From Cyanophora paradoxa CCMP329 (taxonomy: Eukaryota > Plantae > Glaucophyta), in NCBI GenBank assembly GCA_004431415.1, contig QPMI01000642.1, positions 1 to 64,000 on the forward strand: DNA of 64,000 nucleotides, written 5' to 3'. A program made the translations under genes and the position numbers. Below the pieces are notes generated by a model. The model saw only the letters and a list, made by a program, of their open reading frames with translations. It made no database searches and was not told where the DNA came from. This document shows positions 1 to 58,632 of the stretch, piece by piece (position 1 is the stretch's first letter; each line of letters starts with the position of its first letter).

Positions 1-35
1 CAAAGCTGAAGTAGAGAAGGGAGTAGCCCCAACAG

Positions 36-47
36 TATATAAAAGAC
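36..47 (+). promoter_or_regulatory. Putative viral TATA-like promoter TATATAAAAGAC
   Basis: The same 12-mer occurs at 1211-1222; both copies lie within ~70 bp upstream of ORF starts (84, 1281). Confidence 0.5.
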
Positions 48-83
48 GAGTTTGGCTTTAATTTTCTCTTGTTTATTAGAGAA

Positions 84-356
84 ATGGATATAATACGAAA
101 GTTTATTGAGATGTTCAGTCTGCATGTAGTGAGCAATTGCCATAGTGGATGCTGTGACACAACAGTGGAGTTTGAGATGTCAGATACTGAGGATAATGCC
201 TCAGAAGCAAGAGAGAGAAGGAGGTCTACGATTTCTGTGGAGTCAATGCCAGCAGACCCCACAGAGTATACATATGAGCAACAGGAGTATCCAAGGAGAA
301 GTTCTTTGCCAGCAGAAAACGTTTTCTCTGGGAATATAAATGGAGGACACTATTAG
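84..356 (+). CDS. Small acidic hypothetical viral protein
   Basis: ORF (first ATG at 84) downstream of the TATA motif, overlapping the next ORF; CpG-poor like the other viral genes. Confidence 0.5.
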   Translation: MDIIRKFIEMFSLHVVSNCHSGCCDTTVEFEMSDTEDNASEARERRRSTISVESMPADPTEYTYEQQEYPRRSSLPAENVFSGNINGGHY

Positions 357-585
357 TTTAATCGAGTTTACCAGTGATGAACCTGTTACTGAGGGTTCTA
401 TTAGACACATTCTAGCAATGCAGAAACGATATAGAGAGGACCCAGCATATAGAGAGTATAAAAAGCAGCAAGCCCTGGCATCCTATTATCGCAGAAAAGC
501 CCAAAAAGAGGAGCAGAGACCCAGAGGGAGACCGATTAAATATTATTTGCCTACTGATAGTAGCAATGGACCCCCAGGTCTATAA
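340..585 (+). CDS. Small basic protein with AT-hook-like motif (RPRGRP)
   Basis: 81 aa with a basic helix YREYKKQQALASYYRRK followed by PRGRP. Confidence 0.55.
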   Translation: MEDTISLIEFTSDEPVTEGSIRHILAMQKRYREDPAYREYKKQQALASYYRRKAQKEEQRPRGRPIKYYLPTDSSNGPPGL

Positions 586-737
586 GATAATCGAGAAAAA
601 GCGGTCTCAGTATGCCACTGAGGCAGCTATAAAAGTTTACAGACAGGAACTGGTGTTCGCAACAAAAAATGACTTAAAGAAAAAGTAGATAGGTTGTATT
701 GAGGAAAAATTATTTTCGTATCTACTATTAAAGAGCA

Positions 738-1062
738 ATGCCGAATATCCGCAAGATACTCACAGATGATGAAAAAGCAGAGAAGCTGAGACTGAAAAGG
801 GAGCAAGATGCCCAAAGAAAACGCGAAGCCTATCATAAAAAGAAGGAGGAACGATTATCCCAAGGAGCCGCTACAGTTCACACACCAGAAGAACTCAAAA
901 AGATTGCCCTCAGACACCAGAGGAAATACAGGAAAATGAAGAATATCGCGAGCAGAAAAAGGCAAAAGCGCTGGAATATTACCACAAGAAGAAAGATGAA
1001 CAGCCCAAGAAACCAAAGAGCATAAACCGGTTGGAAGACCTCGGAAATATATCGAAGAATAA
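738..1062 (+). CDS. Small basic coiled-coil protein with C-terminal AT-hook (KPVGRPRKY), one frameshift
   Basis: ORF 738-1025; an alternative frame at 1021-1062 reads HKPVGRPRKYIEE*. Confidence 0.5.
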
Positions 1063-1210
1063 ATTCTCGATCGAAACAAATTTTGTAGAAATCGATTTGA
1101 TCGGAGGCAAAAAAATGACAGCTTTCTTCCCTCTTTTTTAAAACTGTACCTATATATCGAGACAGTATCCCGACCCAAAACTACTTAAGGACTTGGCAAA
1201 TAATAGGATA

Positions 1211-1222
1211 TATATAAAAGAC
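1211..1222 (+). promoter_or_regulatory. Putative viral TATA-like promoter TATATAAAAGAC
   Basis: Second copy of the motif, upstream of the primase-helicase ATG. Confidence 0.5.
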
Positions 1223-1280
1223 AATTCCTCCTTCCGAAATTATTTTCTTTGTTAAAGGTAGAAGTCCCCCAAAATCGAAA

Positions 1281-3878
1281 ATGAACAAAATCGAGAAATT
1301 CGCCACCCCTGTTGAAAATGCTACATTCCTTAGTACTCTCATTGGTGATCGCAACAAGGTCACCCATGTATTTGATTCCGCCGAAGATGCCCTTGAAGCC
1401 ATTGATAATAGCAAGGTTAAGACCTGGGCTGAATGCATTCAGCCTGAACAAGTCACCAGAGTTTACCTGGACCTGGATAAATTCGCTGATTTGAAGGAGA
1501 ATATTGCTGATAACTATGCTGAGGCTGAAACTGTTGTAAGAGAGATGAGAGATAAGCTATGGAAGCGATCTGGGACCACTTCGATTAACGATATTGCTGT
1601 TGCAGTTCGCCATAGAAGGGTTTATTTGATCAAGGAGGATGTCACCAAGTTCAAGATCTCAGCCCACTTTATCATTAAATCGCTTGCATGCAAACATGAA
1701 GATATCCCCAAGCTTTTCAAAGCTATGGGATTGGTGAAAAATGAGGATTATGACAGTGGAGTTTACAGCTCCACACAGAACCTTATCTGCCTCAATTGCT
1801 GCAAAGGTGAGACTCTGGATGCTCAAAATAAATCAAAGAAAGATGTTGATAAAAACGTTTGCTTTAAGAAATTCGTTGACTGTGACAAAGTGTTAATGCG
1901 AAATGAGGACTTCTTTGTATCTTTCTTCTCAGCTTCTACTAAACTTGTGGATGAATCGAATATTTCTGCATTCGCAAATTATAGCCCTGAGCCAAAACCA
2001 GTTAAAAAGGAGCCAAAAAGTGATAAAGTGAAGACTGAGAAGGTAGAAGCTGAAAAAGACACTGAACCCGAAAATCCTGTTACTTTCGAACTGCTACAAA
2101 GTGTTATAATGGGTCTGAATGGTGAGAGAGCTAATGAGTATAAAACTTGGATTGATGTAGGACTGGTCATCATCAATGTTGGGGAAGACAACAAGTTCAC
2201 CCCTAAAATGCAAGCTGAACTCTTCACCAATTCTCAGAACAGAGTGACAAGTATGATTATGATGAATGCCAGGAGAAGTTTACACAGCTTCGCAGAAGCA
2301 AGAAGAAGGCTGAGCCTGGCAAAGTGTTGACCTTCAAATCCTTGGTTTATTGGTTGAGCAAAGATAACAATGAGCTTTTCAAGGAACTCTTCCCCAAAAA
2401 GTATGCATTCCTACCAGAGGACACAGATGAAATCGATTACAAGACTGCAAGTATCCCTCCTTTGGCTGAACATTACAATGTGCATAAGAGGTATTTCAAT
2501 GCTCGCATGCATCATGTTGAAAATGTTGGTTGTGTGATGCTCTGGGATGAACAACTACTTTGCTGGATGCCAAAAGATATTGGGAAGCTCTCTACAAAGC
2601 ATTTCCCCCATTTGATGCATAAGGTGATTGTGAATGAGGGAACAGATAATGAGAAAGAGAAATGGGAGCAATCATTTAAAAAGTGGATTGTTGATCCCAC
2701 AGCCACAAGATCAACTTACATGGATTTCCTTCCCCCTCCTGCTACTCTCAGTGCAAAATGCAAGTCTGTATTTAATCTCTATCCAGGAATGAAGGTCGAC
2801 CATCAGCAATTCGAAAATGCCCCAGAGGATGTAACTGCTGAGATGATTAAGCCTTTCCTAGATCACCTGTTCTTAATGTCTGGTGAGGATCAAAATACCT
2901 ATGAATATCTGTTGAAATGGTTTGCCCACATGCTGCAAAAGCCTGGGGAACTCAATGGAGTATCCTTAATCTTCATTGGTGAGCAGGGAACTGGTAAAAA
3001 TGTGTTGGTTGATACTTTCCAAAAGAAGATACTTGGAGATGCCCTAAGTTATGCAACTGGAAAGCCAAAAGAGGATCTGTTTGGTCGATTTGCCCACAAT
3101 AGAGAGGATAAGATCTTGATTGTTGTGAATGAAGCCTCAGGCAAGGACACATTCGAAAATAATGATATGCTCAAAGATCTCATAACTTCTGATAAGATTG
3201 TAATTGAACACAAAGGGATAGATTCATACACAAAAGCAACTTTGCCAGGATTATATTCACCAGCAATAACAACATTCCAGTGAAAATTGAAGCTGGAGAT
3301 AGGCGATTTGTGGTTGTTGAAGTTAGTAAGAAATTCGCAAAGGATAGGTCATACTTCCTTCCACTTGTAAAATGGCTAAATGATCACTGCAATATTCGAA
3401 TATTGCCCACTATTTGAGAACCAAAGTTGACTGTGAGGATGTGAACTGGATTGCTGATAGACCCCTTACAAATAAATACTATTTAGCCCAACAGGTGTGC
3501 GCTCCAATCATCCTTATGTTCACTAAGTGGCTTGTGGATCGAGGCTTAATTTCCGAGAATAAATGCAAGTCTGGTAGCCTTGTGGAAACCTGGAAATGGT
3601 TCCAGGAGTTCATTACCAGCAATAAATATAAAAACGATTATAATAGTCGCAGGTATTATACTGAAATGAGAAGTGTGACATATATCCAAGTGAAAACTAC
3701 AAATGGCAAACAATACTATCATTTCCTATTCCCACAAGTATTTGAGGAATTCAGAAAGATGAAACTTGTAGATGATGAAACTATTGAGGAAGAAGCTAAT
3801 CCAAGGATGAAACAAGACCTACCTGCTGCTGATCCTGATGCATCAGATTATGATTCAGATGTTGAAGTTGAAGTTTAG
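1281..3878 (+). CDS. AEP primase-PriCT-2-SF3 (D5-like) helicase fusion, split by about 3 frameshifts
   Basis: AEP motifs RVYLDLD (DxD) and KISAHFI (SxH); PriCT-like RANEYKTWIDVG; Walker A GEQGTGKN; Walker B IVVNEA; motif C and Arg finger IFTSNN...IEAGDRRFVV in a shifted frame near 3250-3320. Confidence 0.9.
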
Positions 3879-3883
3879 TCAAA

Positions 3884-4063
3884 GGTGGACTCACAGTTGA
3901 TTCAAATTTATCATAAAAGACCCAAACAGTCTTTTATTTACGGTTTATTTATCGATTAGGTTGACTAAGTGGGGGGAGTTGACTCATTTTTTCACAGATT
4001 CTAAAAAAGGACTCTGCCCTAAAAAGAAATAAAAAGTGCCTCAACTCCACCACTAAGTCAACC
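3884..4063. repeat. Internal copy of palindromic GTTGACT/GTGGACT iteron element
   Basis: Arms ggttgactaagtggggggagttgac (3959-3983) and tcaactccaccactaagtcaacc (4041-4063); homologous to the repeats at 9901-10670. Confidence 0.85.
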
Positions 4064-4114
4064 AAAAAATGATTTAAGAGATAGAAAAATATATTTATAT
4101 GTAAGTAGTAAGAA

Positions 4115-4464
4115 ATGGCTGGAACAGATCATGATTCTGGATCGATCTATATGATTGAGAGTGAAGAATTGAATAAAGTTTATATAGGGAGAACTCACAA
4201 AAACTACATATCCGATGGAAACAACACAAATCAGGTCAAATGCCATCAACAGCAGACCTATGCAAGGCTTCTGATGTGAGGTTTTCAGTCCTTTATTCAA
4301 CTAAGAAGGGTGGGCATGAAGACCTTATGAACAGAGAAGCATATTACATGTATTTGTTTGAACCTTGGATAGTCAATCTACAAAAACCGAAATCTCGATT
4401 TAGGATTAATAGGTTTTTGCGATTTCATTCAGAGGAAGCCAATGGATCCATTAAAACATTTTAA
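4115..4464 (+). CDS. GIY-YIG endonuclease (one frameshift near 4200)
   Basis: From ATG 4115: MAGTDHDSGSIYMIESEELNKVYIGRT, then in the shifted frame RWKQH...EDLMNREAYYM...WIVN, giving the GIY/YIG, R, H, E and N motifs. Confidence 0.85.
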
Positions 4465-4524
4465 ATTGCGTTTAGAACATCCTAAAATAAAATATCCCCT
4501 TAGAATAGGAACAAGTTAGGAATA

Positions 4525-7500
4525 ATGCCCGAATTACCAACAAACTCATAAGGGAGAAGAAATGGGAACTCATGGGATTGCTGGGAACACTTTATGCAGC
4601 CCATGAAATTACAGAGGCTGAATATGACCGGGAAATAGATTTAATTGCAAAGGGCAGACCCACTTTAAGCAGATTAACCAGAAAAGCAAATAACCTATAT
4701 GATAAAATTGAAACCTTGGATGAATTGGATAGGCTTAGGCAAATAGAACCAGAGGCAGAAGATGGAACAGCCATGAATGAATTATATCGCTGGCTCACAT
4801 ACAGAGCCAGAAGGGAAGTTGTTGTAGATGTGATTGAATTCCTGGATAGAATTGCTACATCCCTTCCAAATCGATTAAAGCAGGGTTTAGATCAATTCAG
4901 GGCAATCAAGGTTCGCTTGTCTTTTATCTGCAAGTTCGTTAAAGTGAGCAATCCACAGGTTTGGATATCGAAATACATTTACAGTGATTACTTTGTATTA
5001 ACCAGGTCGAGAAATATTCGAACTGAGCTGAATAAAGCAGCCCAAATGTGTCAGGAGCAGATGAATGTGGTTGATAGCTATCGCTTAGAAAGAATTGAAA
5101 TACTCAGAGTGGCTATTATGAGTTATGCTCCAACTGGTGGATGCTTTCTACAAACCCAGAGTGGATTGCTAGGAAGAGAGCCACAGTAAATATTCGAAAT
5201 ATTGATGATTCCTGCTTCGAAAATGCAATTTTGGCATATATTCACAGAAAAGCGATAAACTCCCATAAGAGGAATGAGCTTTCACAATATCGCAAATGGA
5301 AATACTCAGCAATCGCTTATAATCCGCTGGCTCTCAATTTCGATAACATCCCATTCCCTGTTGCCTGTGATGCTGATATTATTGATAAATTCGAGGCTCA
5401 AAATGCAGGCATTAGCATTAATATATTTGGAATCGATGGAGAGGTTATTTATCCCCTGCATCAATCAAGTAACCCAGGCAGAAAGCATAAGGTTAATCTC
5501 ATGCTGATATTTGATGATGAAGGGAATGGTCATTATATTACAATCATGTCCCTTTCAAGATTATTGAAAGTAAATCATGAAACATACAATGATCAGAAGT
5601 TACACTACTGTGACACATGCTTATCTCGATTCAGGTCTGAGGCTAAACTCACTGCTCATGTGGACTCAAATAGATGCATTGACTGGAGACTCTCAAAGGG
5701 AATCACCCTAAACCTGAAACCACCATAGAGTTTGGACTGAAAAACCTCAGGAAAACTGTTTGGCTTCCTGTTGTGGTCTACTGCAAGATTGAACATAGAA
5801 GCATCCCCATTGATGCATCGAAATCCAAGAGGGAAGTTTCAGCAGTCAACCTTAGAGTAGTCACTGGGGAAGATGTTCAAGATTTTCGATTTGAGGGGCA
5901 GGATCCAATGGGAGGTCTGTTTGAATGCTTGGAGTCCAAAGCAAGAGAACTAATCGATTTCCTGTTCACCAATATTCCTATGAATGAACTCACAGATGAG
6001 CAGAAAGCAATTTACAGAGCTACCAAACACTGTTACCTTTGCAGTGAGAGGTTCACTAAGGAGAACTTCAAATGCAGGGATCATGATCACCACACAGGTC
6101 ATTATATTGCTCCTGCATGCAGAAACTGCAATCTCCATAGGAGAATCTCAAAGCAAACCAAAGTTGCAGTAGTTGTTGACCAAATGGATGACTGTGGGAC
6201 ATTCATTTTCAGAAAAATAGCAGGCATGGGTGATAAAAAGCGAATCGAAATCCTTTCGAAAAACTTTGATCAATACCTTTCCTTGCAATGGGGTCTTTAC
6301 AAGTTCATTGATGCAAGTAATTTTATGGACTTTGGGGCTGCTGATGTAGATGAGTTAATGAGCAAATTCCAGGCTTTCAGAAGGCTTTCACACTCAGTAT
6401 ATGGATTGGACCCAGTTCATTATGTATCTGCACCTGGGTTATCTTGGGATGCTATGCTTAGGACCACCAAGGCAAAAATAGAGCTTATAAGTGATGTAGA
6501 GCAATACGAATTTGTTGAGAGGGGAATCAGGGGTGGCTTTGCAACAATGCCTTGTAGGTATGCTGAGGCTGATGGTGAGAACTCCCATATAATGCTGTTT
6601 GATGCTAACAACTTGTATGGCTACTGTTTGAGTCAGCCAATCCCAGTTGGTGATTTAGATGGGAGACCGAATTCAACCCACAAGATAACAGATCCAGTTT
6701 CCTGGAAGTTGATCTGGATTACCCAATTAGGCTATATCTAGACCACAGTGATTTCCCCCTAATTATTAACAAGAAAATAGTAGAATATGCAGAATTATCA
6801 CAATATCAAAGAGCCTATTAGATCTCTCAGGAGAAGAGCTTGATAAGACCCTAAGCTAACTGCAACCTTTGGTTCTGTGACCAACTATGTGATTTCTGAG
6901 CCTCTTCTACAGTATCTGTTGGACAAAGGGGTGAAACTAAAGAAGGTTCACAGGGTCCTATCATTTACTGTGGCTCCTGTAATGAAACCCTACATTGAGC
7001 TGAATACTGAGATGAGAAGGAAAGCAGTGAATAAATTCGAGGCTGATTTCTATAAACTCATGAATAACTCAATCTATGGGAAATGCATTGAATCTTGCAG
7101 AGGTAGATCTGTGGTTAAGATTGCAAACAGTGAGAAACTGTTTATGAAATATGCAGCCTCCCCATTGGTGAAATCAACAAGTCCATAAACGAAAAAGCAG
7201 TTGCCTTTGAGTTTTACACAAAGCATGTGAAGCTAGATAAGCCAGTTGCTATTGGGGCTTATGTTCTGGATGCAGCCAAACTGCATAACTACAAGTTCTT
7301 CTATGATACTGTAAGGTCCCAATGGACAAAAGCAAAGTTACTATTCCATGATACTGACTCCTTTTGTCTATATATCGAATCTAAGACCCTACAAAAAGAT
7401 ATAGAGAATATATCCTATGCATTAGACCTTGGAGGTGATTCCAGAATGACCCCAGGTAAATACAAAAATGAAATGCCTGGCTCTGCTATATTGGAGTATG

Positions 7501-7763
7501 TGGGTCTGAGAGCTAAAGTTTACAGTTTCAGAACTGCTGAGATTGAGAGGAGTAAGCTCTCTGGGACTTCAACTGAGGAACTCCAATTTAATGATTTTAA
7601 ACAGTGTTTATTTGCAGGTATCAGCAAGACTGTGACTGCAAAGCAGAAAAGAAGGGCAGATCACACAATAATAGACACTGTGAGTAGAAGGGTTGCCCTA
7701 AACTGCTTTGATGCAAAGAGATACATCTTACCAGATGGTATTAATTCTGTTCCTTTTAATTAA
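4525..7763 (+). CDS. polB: Protein-primed family B DNA polymerase (Polinton-type) with N-terminal TP-like, vOTU-like and EndoVII-like regions; about 5 frameshifts
   Basis: NIRNIDDSCF...GHY; CDTC Zn finger; RDHDHHTG...CRNCNL; YGLDPVHYVSAPGLSWDAML; GIRGG; motif A DANNLYG; motif B KLMNNSIYGK; motif C HDTDSF; GLRAKVYS; FDAKRY. Confidence 0.93.
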
Positions 7764-7766
7764 GAG

Positions 7767-9152
7767 ATGCCAGCAACTGGAAGAATAGTTAGGAGAACCA
7801 CTGAGCAACTACAAGGTAACCTACTGCCTATCACAGTTCCAAAGGAGGGAAAGGGGGAATCTCGAATTGTTAAAAAGTCTGAAATGAAAGAGCTTGTCCC
7901 AGTAGAGATCCCAGTTGCCATTGCAGTGAAAGAAACCAGCAAGATTGCCAAGAGATTCTATGATGTGAGAACTGGTTACAAAGGGCTTCAAGCTATGAGG
8001 GCTGAGTTACCAGATGAATCCTATAAGCAATTGCAAGAGTTCTATAAAAAGCAAGAGGTAGTTCAGATCAATGCACCTGCTATATCTAGGAAGAGAGATC
8101 CCATGGTCCCAATCAGGCAACCCCTTGATACCTATGTGATTGATTTGCTCTTTTTCCCAGCTTATAAGAAACAAAACAATGGCTATGATACCTTTATGAC
8201 TGCAATGGAATCCACACTAAGAACTGGGTATATTATACCTATAAGGGATAAATCAGCTCTCACTACATTGGCTGCATTTAAACAGCTTGAAATGAGAGTG
8301 GCAAGACCCATAGTAAAAGTTCAATCAGATGCTGGGAGTGAATTCCAAAATCGAATATTCCAGGAGTATTTATCTAGTAAATTCATAGAACACCAAGTGA
8401 GTGGAACTGCTGACCATAGAAGCCAAGGTCGAATTGAAGCCTTTAACAAGCAGATTAAGAGATTGATCACAAACTACTGCATAGCCAATAACACAGCTAG
8501 ATTCTTTGATGTGTTAGGAGATATTGAGTATAATTACAATAATACAGTTCACTCAGCTACTAAGATGAAGCCAGGCGAAACTACAGAGGAGCATTATAGG
8601 TATATAGTGGGATTAGAAGATGAAAGATTCAAGAAATCAATAGCTTATCTTGATACCATGCAGCCTGGCATGTTTGTTAGAGTGAAAGTAGAGAAGAACC
8701 CCTTTGCTAAACAGGGTAACAATTGGTCTAGGATGGTTTACACTGTTGATAGTAGAGAAGGCTTTAAGTTTAAGCTAAAGAGTCCCACTGGAGAGATCAT
8801 AGATAACAGGTTTGCTTTCCATGAGCTGTTGCCTGTGAATGCAGTTGAGTATCTGGAAACCCCTACAGTGGATGCCTTAGAGCAAGCTAAAGAGGAAGCC
8901 AGGGTTGATGCTGCTATAAGGAGAGAGGGCATTGAGGCTGCTAATGAAGTCCCAGATAAGCCTTTGATAGAAGCTAGAAAGGAGAAGACTGGCAAGGTTA
9001 ACAGGGAACTCAAAAAGCTCACTATAGCAGGCACACAGAAACTTTCAGAAGTGAATAGCCAGAGATGGTATAGTGACTTTCAGACTACTAAGGAGTCATA
9101 TACAGCCCCTAAACCTCAAAGAACACTAAGAGAAAGGACCAAAACTAGCTAG
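7767..9152 (+). CDS. Retroviral-like (rve) DDE integrase, Polinton type, intact
   Basis: Catalytic triad in YVIDLL / VQSDAGSEF / QGRIEAFNKQIK; YNNTVHSATKMKP; SH3-like GMFVRV...FAK...NWS...YTV. Confidence 0.95.
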   Translation: MPATGRIVRRTTEQLQGNLLPITVPKEGKGESRIVKKSEMKELVPVEIPVAIAVKETSKIAKRFYDVRTGYKGLQAMRAELPDESYKQLQEFYKKQEVVQINAPAISRKRDPMVPIRQPLDTYVIDLLFFPAYKKQNNGYDTFMTAMESTLRTGYIIPIRDKSALTTLAAFKQLEMRVARPIVKVQSDAGSEFQNRIFQEYLSSKFIEHQVSGTADHRSQGRIEAFNKQIKRLITNYCIANNTARFFDVLGDIEYNYNNTVHSATKMKPGETTEEHYRYIVGLEDERFKKSIAYLDTMQPGMFVRVKVEKNPFAKQGNNWSRMVYTVDSREGFKFKLKSPTGEIIDNRFAFHELLPVNAVEYLETPTVDALEQAKEEARVDAAIRREGIEAANEVPDKPLIEARKEKTGKVNRELKKLTIAGTQKLSEVNSQRWYSDFQTTKESYTAPKPQRTLRERTKTS

Positions 9153-9635
9153 TTTGCTAGGCGAAAACTCGTTTTTTCCAAATATATGTATGACTGATAT
9201 ACATATATGCATATGATATACACATTGTCTTGTAGATCTTTTCAAGCGCTTCACAGCGATATGCAGAACGTTGCGATTTGATAATCTGGTGATGCGATAC
9301 AAGCGTTTGAAGATGCCGATTATCGATTTTTCGAGATTTCGGAATGATGCATCATAATGATGTAATAATGATGTATCATAAACAAATAACATATATATAT
9401 CGCCGTGATCGTCATGATCTCCCGAGTTCGATGGTGTGTCATATATATCATATACATATGCATCGTCATTATGACATCATTTCGTAACATAACACGTCCG
9501 TCATCGTCTTTTTCCGCAGCGAACAGATAAGTGAACAGTTAACGAGACAACTATTGTAATAGTGTACTGCAACAACAATTGAAAACAAGATATGTGGGAA
9601 AGCTATTGAAAGACAATGAAGCAAATTGCGAACAA

Positions 9636-9724
9636 TTAAGTGAACAGTTAAGTGGACACCTGTTGGGAGTAGGCAGTGTCTACTCGTTTATCGTGAAACG
9701 GTGTCCACTTAACTGTTCATTTAA
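9636..9724. repeat. 25-bp inverted repeat (hairpin, ~39-nt loop)
   Basis: ttaagtgaacagttaagtggacacc (9636-9660) pairs with ggtgtccacttaactgttcatttaa (9700-9724), one mismatch. Confidence 0.85.
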
Positions 9725-9900
9725 CTGTTGACGAAAACCCATGCATTATGACATCATATCATTAAACCACATACAAAACACTAAAACGAATGTATCTCTT
9801 CACCAACTCATCATCTGACAAAACCAAAAACAGATTCGAAATCCTCTTAACGAGACCAGCGTGACTATGTAAGTATCATAGGCTCAATAATTCATATGTT

Positions 9901-10670
9901 AATAAGCATCTCCCCTTGATTCCCCCTATTATATAATATTTATATTAAAGTGGACTCAAGGTTGACTCATATTAATCGTAAAAGTAGTAAAAGTATATGG
10001 ATTTTGTTACGAATTCAATGCAAGGGTTGACTAAGTGGGTTGAGTTGACTCAAATTTCACAGGAAATATTTGGGACCTAAAGTTTTCTAAAAAGGATTTG
10101 AAAAAATGTGTCAACTCCCCCCACTTAGTCAACCCTGACCATAAACAGTAAGGATTTGAGCTAACAAGTATCACAAAGTGAACATATTGAGTCCACTTAG
10201 AAGATCCACCTAACAGTTTAGAGTCAAATTTACTTGGGAATTCGATTTGTATAAAAAAGTGAGTCCACCCTGACCATATTCAATAAGCATTCCTCTTAAT
10301 CCCCTTGTTTATATTTACATTGATTAATATTTAATACTAAGTGGACTCATGGTTGATTCATATTAATCGTAAAAGGAGTAAATGTATATAAAAATGTGAC
10401 CATTTCAATGCTAAGGTTGACTAAGTGGGTTGAGTTGACTCAAATTTCAGAGGAAATTTTGAGATCCAAAGAATATTCTATAAAAGATTTTGAAAAATGT
10501 GTCAACTCCCCCCACTTAGTCAACCCTGACCATATACAGTAAGCATTAGAACTTAAATGTATCACAAAGTGAACATTATGAGTCCACTTAGAAGATCCAC
10601 TTTTGAAATATAAGTTGATTTTGCTTGAAATTTCAAAGTTGATCTAAAAGTGAGTCCACCCTGATTGATT
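9901..10670. repeat. Two ~385-bp tandem units, each with a palindromic core
   Basis: Units start with aataagcat at 9901 and 10282. Cores are ggttgactaagtgggttgagttgac...gtcaactccccccacttagtcaacc at 10024-10135 and 10415-10526. Confidence 0.9.
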
Positions 10671-10765
10671 ATGGTAACAAAGTTGACTAAGTTGACTAAG
10701 TTGAGTCATCTTAAGAAATTCAAGGAGACTAAGAGTTCAAATTGTTTATGAAAAGTGAGTCAACT

Positions 10766-12466
10766 TCAGGCGAAGCCTCTTTCTCAAACCCAAAAACCGC
10801 CGAGCGAAATTCCTTTTTTAACCTTTTTTTCCACTCGAGATCCCCCCTGCTAAATAATTTCCGTGTCACACTCCCTCGAGGCAGAATTATTAATTCTGCC
10901 TCGACACGGACGCGATTGATGGACATTACACAGCTGCCCGAACCCCCACAGACCCCTCTAGATCCATTTTTAGCGTCCTGGCTCCCCTAAGACGACCGCT
11001 CCCCCGTGGACGTCGCGCGAACATCGAATTTCCCTCTGGATCAATTCCGGTACTTAACCCCCGACAAACACAGTCCGAGTCAGAAGGTGGGACCCGTTCC
11101 CGCCCGGTCCCGCGACGAAATCGCGCCAGGGACACCCCAGAACGATACAGAATGCCGCGCGAGGGCGAGCGCATCGCCGCAAGCTCGATTTCGGGCGCCG
11201 TCGACGCTCCAGTGCGAAGGGCCGGCCGAACATTTGATCCAGCCGGTTCCGGCCAGTCCCGCGACGCGCGCAATCGATGCGTACTGGCGCGCATAGACAT
11301 AGCAAGGCCTGCGCACCCCCGAAATCCGCTTTTCGGAGCCGGAACAGCGCACGAAGGTACCCGACGGCACAAAATTGGATCTTGCACAGCCCCGGACATC
11401 TTTCCGCGCGCCCGCGCCGCGGCACATGCGCGGAAGAATAGCATAAGCATTTAAGATGTAGAAGAAGCCTTTCACAAGGTCTCTAAATGCGCCGGGCCGC
11501 GAGGACCCAGCCGACCCCGAAAATTCGATCCTCTACAGACCTGAAGACCTTTTCTTGCGCGCTCGCATCCTCGCGCATGCGCATCGCTACAATATTCATT
11601 TGAGATTTTAGCAAAGCCTTCCACAAGCTTCGAAGACGCGAAAGAGCACGAGAACCCAGCCGACGGCAAAAATTCGATCCTGCACGGACCCGGACATCTT
11701 TCCGCGCGCCCACGCCGCGGCGCATGCGCGGAACAATAGCATAAGCATTTGAGATGTAGGCAAAGACTTCCGCACGCTTTGCGTATGCGCCGGGCCGCGA
11801 GGACCCAGCCGACCCCGAAAATTCGATCCTTGACGGACCTGCACAGCTTTCCGCGCGCCCTCGCATCCTCGCGCGTGCGCATTGCTACAATAGTAATTTG
11901 AGATCTTTGTTAAGCTTTTCGCGAGCTCCGAGGACGCGACAGGGCGCGAGAATCCAGCCGACCCCGAAAATTCGATCCTGCATGGACCTGCACGTCTTTC
12001 CGCGCGCCCTCGCCTCCGCAGCCCCGCACATCGATGCTATATGCATTCGATCGCGACATTCTGTTTAAGCGATTCGCAAGCTCTGTGCATGCGCCTGGCC
12101 GCGAGAACCTCGCCCCTCCCGGGCCTCCTTCCCAACAATATTATAATTAATCTCTTCTCAATCTGCTCCACCCTTTAGTTCCCCCCGCAGTGCTGGTGTC
12201 TAGAGACTGTGGCCGGTAATTCACCAAAAAAAAAATTTAGTTCCGAAGTTCCTCAGTAAATTAATATTCCTCTAGCCGGCCAGCGCTAGCTGGACTGGCC
12301 GTCAGCCAGCCAGCTTCCAGCCAGCTGCAGAAAGCTGTTCGCGATCGGCCAGGCCCGGCCGCTGGCCAGTCGCTGAGTGCCCTATATATATAGGCCTACT
12401 GTAACAGCGGCGAGGGCGTCCGCGAGGCTTCGCCGTACTTAGTGCTCCGCAGGAGCACGGATCTTG
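10766..12466 (+). mobile_element. Non-autonomous Helitron2/Helentron-like element, copy 1 (~1.7 kb)
   Basis: 5' TC; asymmetric subterminal IR ggcgaagcctc / gaggcttcgcc; 3' hairpin gtgctcc-gca-ggagcac then ggatCTTG; inserted at T|T with no TSD; internal ~150-bp subrepeats. Confidence 0.85.
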
Positions 12467-13179
12467 TAGACCACTTATGGTAACAAACTTAAATATTTAA
12501 TTGATTTAATCGGAAAAGAACATGATTTAATCGAATTTATTGATATAATTCCGATTAGATTCATTTAGGATTCAATTAAGATTAATCGAAGTTATAGATA
12601 TAATTCCGATTAACTACAATTAAGATACAATATCGATTAATCGAGTTTATCGATATAAAATCGATTAAATTAATTGAAAATGCATTTAAAAATATGAAAA
12701 TTCATGTGAAAATTCAAATAAATTAATCGATTTTATTGATATAACATCGAATCACACATATGAATATTCATATTTTAATCCTGAGGCGGAACGCCGAGGG
12801 ATTAAAATATGAATATTCATATGTGTACTGTATACGCTGTACGTGTAAATATACAGCGCTGTCCGATCCGGATCCGATGATCAAGGAACTAGCTATACGT
12901 ATGAACGTACGTATGCGTACTGTATACGCGTGTACATGTACAGCTAGCGCTGTCCGATTGATGATCAAGGAACTATTTGAAGATCGATTACAAATTTATC
13001 AAGTACGAAAAGGCGAAATCTGGCCTCATTTATCAGAATATCGCGGGTCGATGCAATCATGATCATGATCATGCGAAAAAGTTCGAAAAATTCGAAAGTG
13101 TCCGATCCCGGAGCGGAGCATGCGACGCTGCAGGCAGCAGCGGCCGCTCTCGCTTCGAATCGAGTCGCTATCTAGAAAT

Positions 13180-18624: not shown

Positions 18625-19511
18625 CGAAGGCTGAGCCGGGCGGGCCGGTACGCGCGACGCGCAGGGCCGCATGCAAATGTAGGCTGGCGGGCCGGTTCGC
18701 GCGACGCCGTACGCGCAGGGCCTGCATGCAGGCAACACGTGCGGCAGCAGCTGATGATCTCTCGTTCGTATTTGTGCGGCCCGGCGCCGGGCCGGCGGTC
18801 ATGATCAACTTTTGAAGTTTGAACGCCGGTCAGACGGTCTAGTACGTACGCGTATACCCCGCAAACATATGGTGGCTACTACTAGCTATGGTACTCTTCC
18901 GAATCGATTGGGCTCCGGTACTCAGTACTAATGCGGCAGATGTACCCCCTCGCCCGCAGCTGCTGGGGTACACGCAATTATCCACGCATCGGAGGATTCG
19001 ATATTCGGAGCTCGAAAGGGTCGCCGTCACAGGAACGGTTGGCGATCCGGCCGCGCCCGGACGGCGGACGGCGGTTAATTAATATTACCGTATATAACAG
19101 ATCGAATATTAATTAATGCACGCATTATATGTGACGCATAATATAGACTTTATATAGTATTATTAATGCATCCCCAATTTAATGCGTTTACAAATTACGA
19201 TTAATGCAATTAATCAGGCGAAGCCTCTTTCTCAAAACCAAAAAGAAACGGACGCAATTCCTTTTTTACTCCTTTTTTTCCACTCGAGACCCCCCCTACT
19301 AAATAATTTCCGTGTCGCGACTCCTCGAGGACGAATTATTAATTCTGCCTCGACACGGACGTGACCTCGTACTAGCCACACAGCTCCCCGAACCCCTACA
19401 AATCAGGCGAAGCCTCTTTCTCAAAACCAAAAAGAAACGGACGCAATTCCTTTTTTACTCCTTTTTTTCCACTCGAGACCCCCCCTACTAAATAATTTCC
19501 GTGTCGCGACT

Positions 19512-19575
19512 TTTTTTTTTGAGAGACTACGGTGGGGCGAACCCCCCGTAGGTAGTGATATTAAAGACAACAAAG
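19512..19575 (-). mobile_element. 64-bp polyA-tailed retro-insertion (truncated SINE/LINE 3' end) with 12-bp TSD
   Basis: TSD cgtgtcgcgact at 19500-19511 and 19576-19587; T tract; hairpin ctacgg-tgggg-cgaa-cccc-ccgtag; absent from the duplicate copy near 19310. Confidence 0.8.
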
Positions 19576-21364
19576 CGTGTCGCGACTCCTCGAGGACGAA
19601 TTATTAATTCTGCCTCGACACGGACGTGACCTCGTACTAGCCACACAGCTCCCCGAACCCCTACAAACCTCTCTAGATCCATTTTTAGCGTCCTGGCGCC
19701 CGTAAGACGACCGCTCTCCCGTGGGCGTCCCGCGAAAATCGAATTTCCCTCCAGGATCAATTCCGGTACCGGTACTTAACCTCCGACAAATGCAGTCCGA
19801 ATCAGAAGGTGGGACCCTGTCCCGCCCGGCCCCGCGACGAAATCGCGCCAGGGACGCCCCAGAACGATACAGAATGACGCGCGAGGGCGAGCGCATCGCC
19901 GCAAACTCGATTTCGGGCGCCCTCGACTCTGCAGTCCGAAGAGTCGGCCGAGAATTTGATCCAGCCGGTCCCGCCCGGTCCCGCGACGCGCGAAATCGAT
20001 GCGTTCTGGCGCGCATAGACATAGCACGGCCTGCGCACCCCAGCGATCCGCTTTTCGGAGCCGGAACAGTGCAGGAAGGCACCCGACAGCAAGAATTCGA
20101 TCCTGCACAGGCCCGGGCATCTTTCCGCGCGCGCACGCCGCGGCGCATGCGCGGACCGATAGCATAAGCATTTCAGATGTAGAAGAAGCCTTCCACACGG
20201 TTTGCACATGCGCCCGGCCGCGAGGACCCAGCCGACCCCGAAAATTCGATCCTCTTCAGACCTGAACAACTTTCCGCGCGCCCTCGCATTCTCGCGCATG
20301 CGCATCGCTGGTATATTCATTTGAGATTTTATCAAAGCCTTCCACAAACTTCGAAGACGCGAAAGAGCACGAGAACCCAGTGTTGCAGTAGGCATATATT
20401 CCCATTATCCTAAGTCCCTGTAGACCTGTACCCCTAGTCTGTACCTGTACCCCAATGATACCAGTCCCCAGCTAAACTATGCTGGCAACATCCCTCGCCT
20501 TGGGACGCTGCGCGCACTCCGTGCTGGAGTAGCTAGCTCAGCTGCTCTGGCCGAGTCCGTGGTCAACGAGGCCGCGCGGTCTACGCGGGGGGGAGTGCGC
20601 CGGGCCTGCGGTCGGCCCATCCTACCAGCTAGCGACTACGGGAGGGATTGGAGCGTCAGCTTGCAGCTTGCAGCCCCGGAGCCGATCGCGTGCAGCCGGG
20701 TCGGCGCACGAGGGGCAACTTCCGGACAGGCGTCGCGCTCGCGCAACCGCCTCGCTGGACGCCGCTGGCAAGCAAGAAGGACACCGTGCACACACGGTGG
20801 GGGCCCGCGCGTCGCTCGCCGCATCGCGGTCGCGACTTCCCCGCGCGAGTCCCGGGCACTACGCTTCAGGGATCCTGCGCGAGGGCTCGCCCGTAGCGTA
20901 CGATTCTTTTGCGTAGAGAGAGCTCCGCGCTCGGGTTCTGCCCAAAGCGCGCAAGCACTCGTGCCTTCCGACCGACGCCAAGAGCCAGGTGGTGTCGGCG
21001 CTGTCGTAGCGACGCGACGCGGCGTGCGCGGCTCCACGAGGAGCTTACCAGTGCATCACGTGCAGTGATCGGAGGCCGACGGCGCGCGCGGAGCTCGCGG
21101 GGCGGAGTACCAGTGGCAACTCTCGGGCGCGCGGCGGTTCACCCTCGATCGAGACTGCCACGACGCCCGCCTCAGCGCAGCGCACTCCACGGCCTGTCGA
21201 AGGGGTAATCTCTGCCGAAATTTTCGGCCCGGCCCGTCGCAGGCTCGCCAGCCCAGCGCCAACCATCGTCCCGTCCTGGCCCGCGGACGGCTCCACGCGC
21301 CGCGCGCCACCGTCGCACCCCCGACCGTCTCTTCTTTCTTCCCTTCATCCTGCATCACTCTACG

Positions 21365-23038
21365 ATGTCGTCGTCGTCGTCACGGCACACGCGGCCGCAT
21401 CTTGCTCGCGTCTGCGACTTCTCTCAGATCGCCGAGGTTGCAACATCGCAGGTGATGCCGCAGCACCAGCAGTACTCCCGGCAGATACAGCCGACGACGG
21501 AGCCGACGCTGGTGAAGATCAACAACTGCACCGTCTACTCTTTCGGTTACCCGATGACGCACGCGAACGTCAAGCGGACGCTGGAACAGCTGGATGGTGT
21601 AGTCAACCGCAAACCCTTCTTCGCTGGCACCGCAACCACGCCTGAAGAACGCACTCGTTGTTCACTGATGCTGCGGGAGCTGGCACAAGTCCTTCCGGCG
21701 GAGGAGCAGGACCAGTACCGGGCGCGCCTCGCGCAGCAGGTGGACTTCGACAAGGCCCTCGCGAAGTACGAAGCGGCGTGCGCGGAGCAGAACAACGTGG
21801 TGGAGGCCCTCAAGAACAACGCCGAGGCGACGGAGGCGCAGAAGAACGCCGCGCAGGCGCAGCTCAACGCGCGCGAGGCGACGCTCATCGGGGTGCGGGA
21901 TTTGATGCCGAAGACGACTCTCCGCTCTTACGATGACTTCTGTGAGTACGCACGATCACGCATCGACGAACGCGACAAACGGAACCTTTCGGCATGGGCG
22001 GACACCATGTACTACGGGATCCCGCCGAAGCTTCAGTTCGACCTGACGGTGGAGGCGCTCCAAGTCTCGGGCACACGGGTGACACCGACGCTCATCATAC
22101 AGAAGCTGGACGCCCAGATCGCCCTACGCGCCCGTGAGCACGACGACACCTGGGAGGTCTACCGGGAGGAGGCTGACCGGAGACGAGCTAACTTTGACTT
22201 GCTGGTCGACAAGGTGATGCCGAAGCTGCGCGAACTTCGACAGAAGACCGAGAGCGCCTTCCCGAACGACCCGGGCCTTGCGACTACGTCCTTCATCCAA
22301 CAGGCCCAGGACTGGCTGGAGGACCCGGAGATCAGGCGCAAGTCGAAGCTCGTCACCCTCCTCGCCGGCGCTACGCCGACAAGCGCTGAGTCGGGAGGCC
22401 CGGCACGTGCAGTCTGCATGACTCGCACAGACGTCGCTGAAGACACCCTCGACCCGTCGCCGTCTAAACGCCCGCGCCACGAGCTCGAGTTGGCCCCGTC
22501 AACGTCGGCCCTGTCACCAACGTCCAGCGCTCCACCTGGCCCGACGCCGAACCTCATCAAGCAGATCGTGGAGACCACCATCGCATGTCTCCGCGACCGG
22601 TTGGTGCAGGATGCTGCTGCGTATGCCACAAACCCGCAGGGGGCGCCCACGCACTTCGCTGGTCAGTTCGACTACGAGTCCGATGGCGAGAGCGAGATCT
22701 ACCCGCCCAGCGGTGCCGGGGTCATGGGCTCGAGCCCGGGTCTTCAGTCGGCTCCGTACTCCCAGCAGGCTCCCCCGTACCCGTTGCCAGCCGGCCCTCC
22801 TCAGCTCCCGTCGCCCTACACCTCGACGCCTGTCGGCCTCCCTCAGCTCCCGGCACCGCCAGTGTCACCGTCCATCTGCATGCGCTGCCTGGCCCTCTTC
22901 CAGCTGTCGTGGCCTCTCGTGCACCGCTTTGATGACTACTCTCAGTGCGTGGCTGCCTGTGCCCTGGCGGGCATCCCGTTGCCTCATGGCGCGCCGGCGC
23001 TCCCGCTCGACTGGCGGGCGCGGCTCGGCCTCCTCTGA
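21365..23038 (+). CDS. Gag-like protein (coiled coil, Pro-rich tail, atypical C-x2-C-x11-H-x7-C knuckle)
   Basis: Only long intronless ORF with protein-like composition inside the LTR element; 557 aa; CMRC...H...C near the C-terminus. Confidence 0.7.
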   Translation: MSSSSSRHTRPHLARVCDFSQIAEVATSQVMPQHQQYSRQIQPTTEPTLVKINNCTVYSFGYPMTHANVKRTLEQLDGVVNRKPFFAGTATTPEERTRCSLMLRELAQVLPAEEQDQYRARLAQQVDFDKALAKYEAACAEQNNVVEALKNNAEATEAQKNAAQAQLNAREATLIGVRDLMPKTTLRSYDDFCEYARSRIDERDKRNLSAWADTMYYGIPPKLQFDLTVEALQVSGTRVTPTLIIQKLDAQIALRAREHDDTWEVYREEADRRRANFDLLVDKVMPKLRELRQKTESAFPNDPGLATTSFIQQAQDWLEDPEIRRKSKLVTLLAGATPTSAESGGPARAVCMTRTDVAEDTLDPSPSKRPRHELELAPSTSALSPTSSAPPGPTPNLIKQIVETTIACLRDRLVQDAAAYATNPQGAPTHFAGQFDYESDGESEIYPPSGAGVMGSSPGLQSAPYSQQAPPYPLPAGPPQLPSPYTSTPVGLPQLPAPPVSPSICMRCLALFQLSWPLVHRFDDYSQCVAACALAGIPLPHGAPALPLDWRARLGLL

Positions 23039-23876: not shown

Positions 23877-26218
23877 CTTGGGCCGGCTCCCGACCGTGTC
23901 GCGCCACGTGGCCCACGCGCTATCGGACGATACCTGAGAATGGGGGGCCAAAGACCCACGCGGCGGCACTGCCTCCTCGGGGCTCGCCAGCGAGCGTTGC
24001 GATGGCGCCCCGCTAGCTCCGCCACGTTTTTCCCAGGGGGACGCCCCTTTAGCTCTGATGATTTGCCCCGTTGAGCCTCGCTGCGCCAGCGCCGCCCCGC
24101 CCTGCTCAGTGACTGCTCCGCCCCGCCCGCCGGCTGCTCCGCCTCGCAACGCGATATCGATGCTAGCGCTATGCTCTGTGCTGCATTGAGCCCTTCCCTG
24201 TCGCCCGATCGCGAGCCCCTAGAGCCCGGTCCACCCCTCTCACTTGCCGCCCCGTGACAATCCTCTTTTTGATTCAGATGGATTTGTTTGACGGGTTGCC
24301 TTGTCACGGGCGGCATGTGAGATGGCGGTGGTCGGCCTCGAGGCGCGGCTCTCCGATGCGGCGCGGGCGCCCATCCATCCCCTTGGCTCTCCTCGGCTTC
24401 GACTCCTCCTTCCCCCGGCTCCCACCTCTCACTCCTCCGGCTCCGGCGTCTTCGCTTCGCCCTCTCCCCGGCCTCTGGCCCTCGGCGCGGCGACGGCACC
24501 AGTGCGGCGACTGCGACGGCACGGCAGGGTTTTTTTTGCCCGGTTTTTCCCCTGACCGTTATCGACCCTCGAGGGCAAACATCTGGCCCCGGGCGGCCTC
24601 TCCTTGCTCGCCCTCGAGTGGCAGTCCGTACGCCTCCTTCTGGACCTGGCCCGGCTTCATGCAGCCCGGATTTCAGTTGGACTTTTATAGTTGGCTCTGG
24701 ACTCGGTTTTGTTTTTCAGCTAGTGCACGAGGACGCGCACTTGTGCGACAGTGACATGTTGTAGCTGCCAGCTGCAGATAGATTCAGCCTTCGACTTTCC
24801 ATTGCATTGAGTAGCTGTCTCTCGCGCATTTATATTATATACGCATTATATTCATATCCCCGCATTTATATACGTATGCAGCGCACCCTGGCTCGACTCC
24901 TCATGTTTGGACTCGCCATGGCCAGATCAGCTGTTGTTTAGTCGGTTCCCTCTTCTCAGTGGCTCGGACTTGCACACTATAGTTGGTAATCTATAGCTAC
25001 ACTAGGTTTTCGAGGCCGCCCGGTCGGTGAGCGCGTAGGCTAGATAGGCGCTCTGGCTTGAGGTTGGGACCTCTGTTGTTTACTTCATATTTTCACCTTC
25101 ACCAGCCTCTCGTCTTGTGAAGTCGTATCATGGACCCCCGGCTTGCGTCCCGGGAGGTTTCCGGGGCCTACCCCCGCGTCTTGTATATCTGTATTTTTCT
25201 CTCTTACTAGTTAACGCGCACGAGGACGTGCGCTTGTGAAGTCGTATCATGTTGCAGTAGGCATATATTCCCATTATCCTAAGTCCCTGTAGACCTGTAC
25301 CCCTAGTCTGTACCTGTACCCCAATGATACCAGTCCCCAGCTAAACTATGCTGGCAACACCAGCCGACGGCAAAAATTCGATCCTGCACGGACCCGGACA
25401 TCTTTCCGCGCGCCCACGCCGCGGCGCATGCGCGGAACAATAGCATAAGCATCTGAGATGTAGAGCAAGCGTTTCGCACGCTTTACTGATGTGCCGGGCC
25501 GCGAGGGCCCAGCCGACCCCGAAAATTCGATCCTGGACGGACCTGAACATCTTTCCGCGCGCCCTGGCATCCTCGCGCATGCGCATCGCTACAATATTCA
25601 TTTGAGATTTTATTAAAGCTTTTCGCAAGCTCTGCGGACGCGACAAGGCGCGGCAATCCAGCCGACGCAAAAATTCGATCCTGGCCACGCCTGCACATCC
25701 GCGCGCCCTCGCCTCCGCAGCCCTGCACATCGATGCTATATGCGTTCAAGATTCTGTTTAAGCGATGCGCAAGCTCTGTGCATGCGCCTGGCCGCGAGAA
25801 CCTCGCCCCTCCCGGCCGCGGGCCTCCTTCCCAACAATATTATATAATTAATCTCCTCTCAATATGCTCCACCCTTTATTTCCTCAGCACATTAATATTC
25901 CTCTAGCCGGCCAGGGCTAGCTGGACTGGCCGTCAGCTAGCCAGCTTCCAGCCAGAAAGCTGTTCGCTGGCCAGTCGATGAGTGCCCTATAGGCCTACTG
26001 TGACAGCCGCGAGGGCGTCCGCGAGGCTTCGCCGTACTTAGTGCTCCGCAGGAGCACGGATCTTGTTATGCAAAGCGCATTAATTGATTAATTAATATAT
26101 TGCCATTACTCAGTATATATTGGGCGCATTAATATTGTGTTTTACGGTAATTATATAAACGATCGGTGTTACGACGGTGTAAAACCTTGCATGATCATAG
26201 CATGATCATGAATCATGA

Positions 26219-27399
26219 CAAGATCCGTGCTCCTGCGGAGCACTAAGTACGGCGAAGCCTCGCGGACGCCCTCGCGGCTGTCACAGTAGGCCTATAGGGC
26301 ACTGGCCAGCGGCCTGGCCGATCGCGAACAGCTTTCTGGTTGGAAGCTGGCCGGCTGACGGCCAGTCCAGCTACCGCTGGCCGGCTAGAGGAATATAACT
26401 AGAGGAATATTAATGTACTGAGGAAATAAAGGGAGGCCGGAGCAGGTTGAGATTAGAGGAGATGAATTATATATAATATTGTTGAGAGGGAGGCCCGGGA
26501 GGGGCAAGGTTCTCGCGGCCAGGCGCATGCACAGAGCTTGCGAATCGCTTAAACAGAATCTTGAATGCATATAGCTATAGCATCGATGTGCGGGGCTGCG
26601 GAGCTCGAGGCGAGGGCGCGCGGAAAGATGTGCAGGTCCATGCAGGATCGAATTTTCGGGGTCGGCTGGGTCCTCGCGGCCCGTCGCATACGCAAAGCGT
26701 GCGGAAGACTTTGCCTACATCTTAAATGCTTATGCTATCGTTCCGCGCATGCGCCGCGGCGTGGGCGCGCGGAAAGATGTCAGGGCGCGTGCAGGATCGA
26801 ATTTTGGCCGTCGGGTACCTTCCTGCGCTGTTCCGGCTCCGAAAAGCGGATTTCGGGGGTGCGCAGGCCCTGCTATGTCCATGCGCGCCAGTACGCATCG
26901 ATTGCGCGCGTCGCGGGACCGGGCGGGACCGGCTAGCGCTGGATCAAATTTTCGGCCGACTCTTCGCACTGGAGCGTCGACGGCGCTTGAAATCGAGCTT
27001 GCGGCGATGCGCTCGCCCTCGCGCGGCATTCTGTATCGTTCTGGGGCGTCCCTGGCGCGATTTCGTCGCGGGACCGGGCGGGACCGGGTCCCACCTTCTG
27101 ACTCGGACTGCATTTGTCGGAGGTTAAGTACCGGAATTGATCCAGAGGGAAATTCGATTTTCGCGCGACGCCCACGGGCGAGCGGTCGTCTTAGGGGAGC
27201 CACGACGCTAAAAATGGATCTAGAGAGGTCTGTGGGGGTTAGGGTAGCTGAGTCATTAGCGGCAATCGCGTCCGTGTCGAGGCAGAATTAATAATTCGTC
27301 CTCGAGGGAGTGCGACGCGGAAATTATTTAGCAGGGGGGATCTTGAGTGGAAAAAAAGGTTAAAAAAGGAATTTATATCGGCGGTTTTTGGGTTTGAGA
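26219..27399 (-). mobile_element. Helitron2-like copy 3 (lacks ~15 bp of 5' end)
   Basis: Starts caagatccgtgctcctgcggagcac (reverse complement of the 3' end) and ends gggtttgaga, abutting copy 4. Confidence 0.85.
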
Positions 27400-29527: not shown

Positions 29528-29714
29528 AGCGACTGTTCTGTCTTCGAATGGTCGGTTCAGATTCGCGTCACAGCGGACGAGTTCGAATTTGGGGCTCCGC
29601 TTACCAAAGCGGCAAGGTTGCAAGTTGCAAAAAAATGGCTAGCGTGGGACTCGGTGAGTCTCGGTCCAAGAGCTCTGGGGGGAGGGGTACGTATTTGGCA
29701 CAGGACGCTAGCGC

Positions 29715-58597: not shown

Positions 58598-58632
<35 letters not shown>

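What the first reader, a model, noticed from the sequence alone, without database searches (positions are those of the whole stretch)
1281..9152. Endogenous virus with two priming systems: catalytically intact AEP primase-helicase plus protein-primed PolB, GIY-YIG and integrase
Seen: four co-oriented replication and integration genes in an AT-rich island. Known: Polintons carry pPolB and rve integrase, and mavirus has SF3 helicase, integrase, pPolB and GIY-YIG; protein-primed replicons do not need a primase. Here the helicase is fused to an AEP retaining DxD and SxH plus PriCT. Inference: an uncharacterised Polinton-like or virophage-like lineage in a glaucophyte-like host that may initiate both at the termini and at internal origins.
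Basis: partly seen in the sequence, partly recalled or inferred. Interest (0 to 1): 0.85.

Follow-up and report, generated by a model that had tools for sequence, protein, structure and literature searches.

The report
Polinton-like element with two DNA starters
A virus-like element repeated many times in a GC-rich eukaryotic genome carries both a protein-primed DNA polymerase that has lost its proofreading residues and a primase-helicase, which likely work together to copy it; such double kits are rare but have been reported before.

Summary
Window 1281-9152 encodes, on one strand, an AEP-PriCT2-SF3 primase-helicase, a GIY-YIG nuclease, a Polinton-type pPolB and an rve integrase. The AEP fold and acidic/His motifs are confirmed. 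The 11 frame breaks match one-letter gaps that deep short-read contigs lack, so they are probably assembly errors. Flat depth and bridging contigs show the helicase-to-pPolB link is family-wide, not a one-off nesting. New here: the pPolB keeps its terminal-protein region, vOTU and palm motifs but has lost two exonuclease aspartates and about 100 residues, intact in 14 of 14 relatives. This repeats the mavirus pattern (exonuclease lost, helicase gained) in a separate polymerase lineage. A 180-bp iteron-hairpin repeat lies between the two blocks and twice at the right end. Relatives keep the two replicases apart (0 of 17 and 0 of 33 loci). However, pPolB plus primase-helicase is already reported in Halocafeteria virophages and in a 2026 preprint, including a repeat-bracketed glaucophyte contig. 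Capsid genes, TIR pair and TSD lie outside the window, so virus status is untested. Verdict: new variant of a known kind; dual priming is plausible but unshown.

The parts
27..1141 (+). Three short ORFs at the cut left edge (27-356, 340-585, 738-1141 with one break near 930); two are basic and helical, no family assigned
   Evidence: deep contigs lack the one-letter gap near 930
1281..3878 (+). AEP-PriCT2-SF3 primase-helicase, about 865 codons, broken near 2224, 3231 and 3400; AEP D64/D66/H129/D158, Walker A near 2990, Walker B near 3130
3882..4063 (.). Internal copy of the iteron-hairpin repeat (GTKGACTMA motifs; hairpin 3959-4063), about 70% identical to the right-end units, same orientation
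   Evidence: DNA fold z -5.8, 0 of 200 shuffles
4115..4464 (+). GIY-YIG endonuclease, one break near 4193; absent from a minor variant
   Evidence: X4 contig skips 4051-4482 at depth 199
4525..7763 (+). Polinton-type pPolB: terminal-protein-like region, vOTU (Cys, His kept), Zn finger, degenerate exonuclease with endonuclease VII insert, palm motifs A/B/C, TPR1/TPR2 regions; seven breaks
   Evidence: start codon inferred
7767..9152 (+). rve (DDE) integrase, unbroken, D127/D189/E225 (numbered from 7764)
   Evidence: (P0024, 76% identical)
9153..10765 (.). AT-rich non-coding arm: hairpin 9631-9729 and two about 340-bp iteron-hairpin units (9934-10273, 10325-10664)
10766..12466 (+). Unrelated Helitron-like insertion (5' TC, 3' hairpin then CTTG, inserted before T) in this copy
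   Evidence: empty site seen as loose ends at 10766 in X2, X4, X15
12467..13080 (.). AT-rich continuation of the arm: 55-bp repeat array and hairpin 12754-12826; likely the element's right end (boundary approximate)
   Evidence: z -12.7

Best explanation
This is the replication-integration arm of a multi-copy endogenous Polinton-like element in which a protein-primed polymerase that has lost its proofreading residues is stably linked to an AEP-SF3 primase-helicase and likely relies on it to unwind the template. Shown: gene content, motif status, family-wide linkage, repeat layout. Inferred: rve integrates the element; after excision the vOTU frees the terminal protein, pPolB starts at the ends, the SF3 hexamer unwinds ahead of it (as argued for mavirus), and the AEP reprimes the displaced strand or fires at the iteron-hairpin repeats. 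The arm most likely arose by joining an AEP-SF3 module to a standard pPolB-rve module, the internal repeat marking the seam.
For: Exo I Asp is Lys and Exo II Asp is Gly, while 14 of 14 full-length relatives keep both; the spacer before Exo III is 32 aa against 126-142 aa in 12 of 14 relatives where it could be measured. vOTU Cys/His, palm motifs and a TP-like region (profile E 3e-5) are kept. Contig depth is flat from 641 to 4766 in X9 (621-936), and contigs bridge helicase to repeat (X2, 3819-4051, depth 1658) and GIY-YIG to pPolB (X9, 4034-4622, depth 636); the only joint listed in 450-4900 skips GIY-YIG alone. Loose ends at 634 and 2912 read as diverged in-register homologues, hinting that the second subfamily also has a helicase (read by eye). 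Krupovic et al. link exonuclease loss to helicase gain (PMC11161782, passages).
Against: No activity data. A second, deeper pPolB type (20 differences in 155 nt; depth 1216 against 742 in X9, 2034 in X2, 2594 in X4) has an upstream region that does not lay on this helicase at 85% identity, so exonuclease loss may not depend on this gene. The repeat at 3882-4063 brackets GIY-pPolB-rve with the right-end units, as expected of separately mobile modules. In 6 of 7 nearest AEP relatives motif II His is Arg and none has the PrimPol-type Arg after motif III (PrimPol motif recalled), so the chemistry of this AEP subfamily is uncharacterised. No single contig spans the region.
Confidence: 0.5

Rival explanations
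1. Two separately mobile units sit in tandem and were amplified together: a free AEP-SF3 cassette and a capsid-less, transpoviron-like GIY-pPolB-rve unit bounded by the direct hairpin repeats. Each would replicate by its own enzyme.
For: The 3882-4063 repeat is a direct copy of the right-end units. Summed depth is higher left of about 640 and right of about 4480 than over the helicase. Relatives never pair the two (0 of 17, 0 of 33). The preprint reads a Cyanophora contig this way.
Against: Depth shows most helicase copies continue into the pPolB block, and no contig joins the left ORFs to pPolB. Summed depth is inflated by overlapping variant contigs. An exonuclease-dead pPolB alone would be unusual. 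The internal repeat is a half-length, 70% copy.
Confidence: 0.3
2. Replicase replacement in progress: the AEP-SF3 is now the working primase-polymerase, starting at the hairpin repeats, and the pPolB is decaying or kept only for its terminal protein.
For: The pPolB has the longest branch among 15 sequences (1.55) and a dead exonuclease. Halocafeteria authors read double replicases as transient states; group 2 Polintons often swap pPolB for AEP-helicases.
Against: Palm motifs A, B, C, vOTU and the TP-like region are intact, frames are open in deep contigs, and the clean loss of one domain looks selected, not random.
Confidence: 0.15

Closest known systems
Mavirus and low-GC EMALEs (PMC8547959, PMC11161782, PMC3671162; passages)
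   Same: pPolB lacking a working exonuclease, separate SF3 helicase, rve integrase, GIY-YIG, AT-rich and CpG-poor island in a GC-rich host
   Different: Mavirus S3H has no other recognisable domain; here an AEP and PriCT2 are fused. This pPolB is of the endonuclease-VII-bearing Polinton type and keeps a partial exonuclease, so the loss is inferred to be independent.
Multi-replicase polisuviruses, incl. contig EVE_QPMI01_83 (bioRxiv 10.64898/2026.10.13.758929, sections 11 and 13 read, figures not seen); QPMI01 is Cyanophora paradoxa in PMC10120064 supplement
   Same: pPolB paired with a DDE integrase, a separate AEP gene, nearby endonuclease, internal repeats bracketing one replication module
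   Different: They read that contig as three tandem elements; exonuclease status is not mentioned (0 hits). Whether it is this family was not established.
Halocafeteria seosinensis virophages with pPolB plus D5 primase-helicase (bioRxiv 10.64898/2026.07.28.741278, section 7)
   Same: Both replicase types and an rve integrase in one endogenous element; palindromes near ends
   Different: Virophage capsid known there; read as transient. Here the pairing runs through a deep multi-copy family.
PLV/Polinton pPolB-rve modules in IMG/VR (L004-L008, L010-L020)
   Same: TP-vOTU-ZnF-Exo(EnVII)-palm layout, 28-35% identity; rve found in 12 of 17 loci, directly downstream on the same strand in 6
   Different: Exonuclease intact in 14 of 14; no primase-helicase in any of 17 fetched loci.

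Membership tests
Polinton/Maverick (Polintoviricetes) | protein-primed PolB with TP, vOTU, TPR1, TPR2 | tested here: met
   (by alignment; TP region E 3e-5)
Polinton/Maverick (Polintoviricetes) | rve integrase with DDE triad | tested here: met
Polinton/Maverick (Polintoviricetes) | intact proofreading exonuclease in pPolB | tested here: not met
   Exo I and Exo II Asp lost, about 100 aa deleted
Polinton/PLV/virophage | double jelly-roll MCP, penton, A32 ATPase, protease | not testable with these tools
   Element runs off the left edge; no genome held; 267 ORFs from loci L001-L020 (L009 left out) hit nothing else in the window
Polinton/PLV/virophage | terminal inverted repeats and 5-6 bp TSD | not testable with these tools
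   Only the right arm is in the window; its end near 13080 is approximate
Mavirus-type virophage (EMALE) | TP-vOTU-palm pPolB with only a remnant exonuclease, and helicase without primase | tested here: not met
   pPolB keeps part of Exo plus EnVII; helicase carries AEP
AEP-SF3 primase-helicase of PLVs (PrimPol/D5 clade) | AEP fold with motifs I, II, III, PriCT2 and SF3 Walker A/B/C | tested here: met
AEP-SF3 primase-helicase of PLVs (PrimPol/D5 clade) | primase or polymerase activity | not testable with these tools
   needs an assay
Transpoviron | pPolB-S1H fusion replicase, no capsid | tested here: not met
   No SF1 helicase on the pPolB, which ends at 7763; capsid absence untested

The most novel reading that the evidence does not exclude
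A stable eukaryotic replicon that starts DNA in two ways: protein-primed at its ends and AEP-primed at internal iteron-hairpin origins, with a third, independent loss of pPolB proofreading made possible by capture of a primase-helicase; a fixed intermediate on the road from Polintons to AEP-SF3 viruses.
Probability: 0.2. Interest if true: 0.75.

Novelty: new variant of a known kind. Interest (0 to 1): 0.5.

Why it matters
Replicase swapping is central to current models of Polinton, PLV and virophage evolution, but intermediates are seen mostly as single contigs. This family holds both replicases in many copies in an organism with many public DNA runs, so the swap can be studied copy by copy. 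It also offers an independent test of the proposed trade between exonuclease loss and helicase gain, and a concrete candidate origin (the iteron-hairpin repeat) for AEP-SF3 proteins, whose origins are unknown.

Tried and rejected
AEP inactive because motif III lacks Arg: rejected, none of the 7 nearest relatives has it. Degraded pseudogene cluster: rejected as the family state; all 11 breaks in the three broken genes coincide with one-letter gaps absent from deep contigs, though near 5705 only a minority of summed depth shows it and near 2224 only X2 covers it. No Pfam, PHROG, PDB-sequence or word-index hit for the AEP piece; the single-sequence fold failed, pLDDT 37. No close relatives of the integrase in viral contigs; one distant locus in metagenomes. 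L009 dropped as a false pPolB hit; the POL hit in L003/L048 is a stand-alone endonuclease VII. Only one of the 33 helicase contigs carries this AEP subfamily, so that count speaks for the helicase domain only, and fetched loci are partial contigs. The repeat was not found in 20 loci or viral contigs. Sigma-70 scan uninformative. No RNA holder listed; the few contigs from runs guessed to be RNA (X15, X19) are not evidence of expression. No single-copy control was laid, so copy number (roughly 30-50 from the ratio to rare-variant contigs at depth 31-66) is only an inference; episomal DNA cannot be told apart. The pPolB tree has no reference Polintons or mavirus and does not place the lineage. 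Earlier-findings look-ups by place and sequence were empty. Supplements of PMC11161782 and PMC12220804 gave no gene tables for these elements; bioRxiv supplements were not seen and may show whether EVE_QPMI01_83 is this family. Literature searches found no report of an exonuclease-dead EnVII-type pPolB with a separate AEP-SF3 ('inactivated exonuclease' 0 hits in the 15 of 23 papers listed); this is a weak negative.

Full report
Observation. The first 10.7 kb of the window is 36-41% GC against 51-81% in the host DNA beyond 13 kb, where Pfam finds an INO80-like remodeller and a PPR gene. Four co-oriented genes lie at 1281-9152. The primase-helicase is in four frame pieces that match single 750-800 aa proteins in order. 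A profile search of 1.84 billion proteins found 7 relatives of the N-terminal piece (best E 5e-10), all with PriCT_2 and a D5- or DUF5906-type helicase. With these, AlphaFold gave a usable core (mean pLDDT 62; residues 61-160 at 78-94) whose best matches are poxvirus D5/E5 AEP domains and human PrimPol. D64, D66, H129 and D158 are present. The integrase has a full DDE triad.

Breaks. The three broken genes have 11 frame breaks. All 11 coincide with one-letter gaps that deep Logan contigs from DNA runs of organism A do not have; the share of depth is full at several, about half at 6807, 6848 and 7182, and a minority near 5705. I infer long-read assembly errors and an intact family. Single contigs over the helicase have depths of 1,400-2,300 in X1, X2 and X4, against 31-66 for rare-variant contigs, which suggests some tens of copies; no single-copy control was laid and the tool warns that depth is not copy number.

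One element or two? In X9, contig depth stays between 621 and 936 from 641 to 4766; an X2 contig bridges helicase end and repeat at depth 1658, and an X9 contig bridges GIY-YIG and pPolB at 636. The only joint listed in 450-4900 skips GIY-YIG (X4, depth 199), so that gene is optional. The link is thus family-wide. Against a simple picture: a second pPolB type, 87% alike at 4611-4765, is deeper, and its upstream part does not lay here; loose ends at 634 and 2912 look like diverged homologues in register, which hints, without proof, that it has its own helicase. A 180-bp repeat at 3882-4063 is a 70% direct copy of two units in the right arm. The motif GTKGACTMA occurs 20 times in the window (0.71 expected; 0 of 100 shuffles), 19 of them in these repeats and the arm, and the internal copy folds into a long hairpin (z -5.8). 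It may be an origin, a transcription signal or the relic end of a module; none of these was tested.

The polymerase. Against 14 full-length relatives from IMG/VR and metagenomes it keeps a TP-like region (E 3e-5), vOTU Cys and His, Zn finger, endonuclease VII insert, motifs A, B, C and the TPR1 and TPR2 regions. Its exonuclease is degenerate: Exo I Asp to Lys, Exo II Asp to Gly, and a 32-aa spacer where 12 measurable relatives have 126-142 aa. An X15 contig spans the deletion without a gap (6261-6597), so it is not an assembly slip. All 14 relatives keep the motifs, and none of 17 pPolB loci has this helicase; none of 33 helicase contigs has pPolB or rve in the DNA fetched. Krupovic et al. (PMC11161782, passages) note that exonuclease loss goes with helicase gain in mavirus and in pPolB-S1H fusions. 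This element fits that rule with a different pPolB type, which argues that the helicase and polymerase cooperate.

Mechanism. I favour (0.5) terminal protein priming by pPolB with SF3 unwinding, the AEP serving to reprime or to fire at the repeats; all enzymatic steps are inferred. Rivals: two separately mobile units amplified in tandem (0.3), or replacement of pPolB by AEP-SF3 in progress (0.15).

What is known. Yutin et al. (PMC3671162, passages) call pPolB plus primase-helicase uncommon and find no primase on mavirus S3H; Hackl et al. (PMC8547959, passages) annotate primase/helicase, pPolB and rve in low-GC EMALEs. Halocafeteria virophages carry pPolB with a D5 primase-helicase (bioRxiv 2026.07.28.741278, section 7). 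A 2026 preprint (2026.10.13.758929; sections 10 part 1, 11 and 13 read, figures unseen) shows genomes with two replicase classes and internal repeats, among them EVE_QPMI01_83 with pPolB-DDE units and an AEP gene; QPMI01 is Cyanophora paradoxa, with 366 capsid hits (PMC10120064 supplement rows). AEP-SF3 fusions are common in PLVs (PMC12220804 section 11; bioRxiv 2026.06.19.733378 passages), and inverted repeats have been proposed as their origins (PMC11296320, passages).

Limits. The element runs off the left edge and no genome was held; capsid genes, TIR pair and TSD are untested. The right arm is split by a Helitron-like insertion (10766-12466) and goes on to about 13080.

Verdict. Real, unusual, partly anticipated: a new variant of a known kind, interest 0.5.

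Noticed in passing
window 10766-12466; copies at about 19214-20380, 25360-26066, 26218-27404, 27399-29529: Non-coding Helitron-like family (5' TC, internal 149-bp tandem units, 3' hairpin then CTTG, inserted before T), nested in itself near 27399; very deep in DNA runs. Helitron hallmarks are recalled.
   Followed up: partly
window 7767-9152 and 6850-7760: CpG observed/expected falls to 0.07-0.09 in the integrase and polymerase palm, against 0.4-0.5 in the AEP, TP and vOTU pieces and above 1.1 in host DNA; may reflect avoidance of host methylation.
   Followed up: partly
P0027-P0033: An AEP subfamily with a conserved His-Arg before motif II, Arg for His in motif II in 6 of 7, and two different helicase types behind it; no Pfam model covers it.
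   Followed up: partly
window 57300-63400, minus strand: Host INO80-like remodeller (DBINO, SNF2, Helicase_C).
   Followed up: no
window 21209-23038: 609-aa ORF without Pfam hit, between Helitron-like copies; possibly a retroelement gag-like gene (guess).
   Followed up: no
L003:3662-8283: Three capsid-like ORFs in a row beside a primase-helicase and tyrosine-recombinase-like gene, resembling the Trimcap PLV layout (read by eye).
   Followed up: no
X19 (organism B label) on window 2890-3140 and 4050-4194; P0024: Close relatives of the element exist under another organism label and in an ENA assembly (integrase 76% identical).
   Followed up: no
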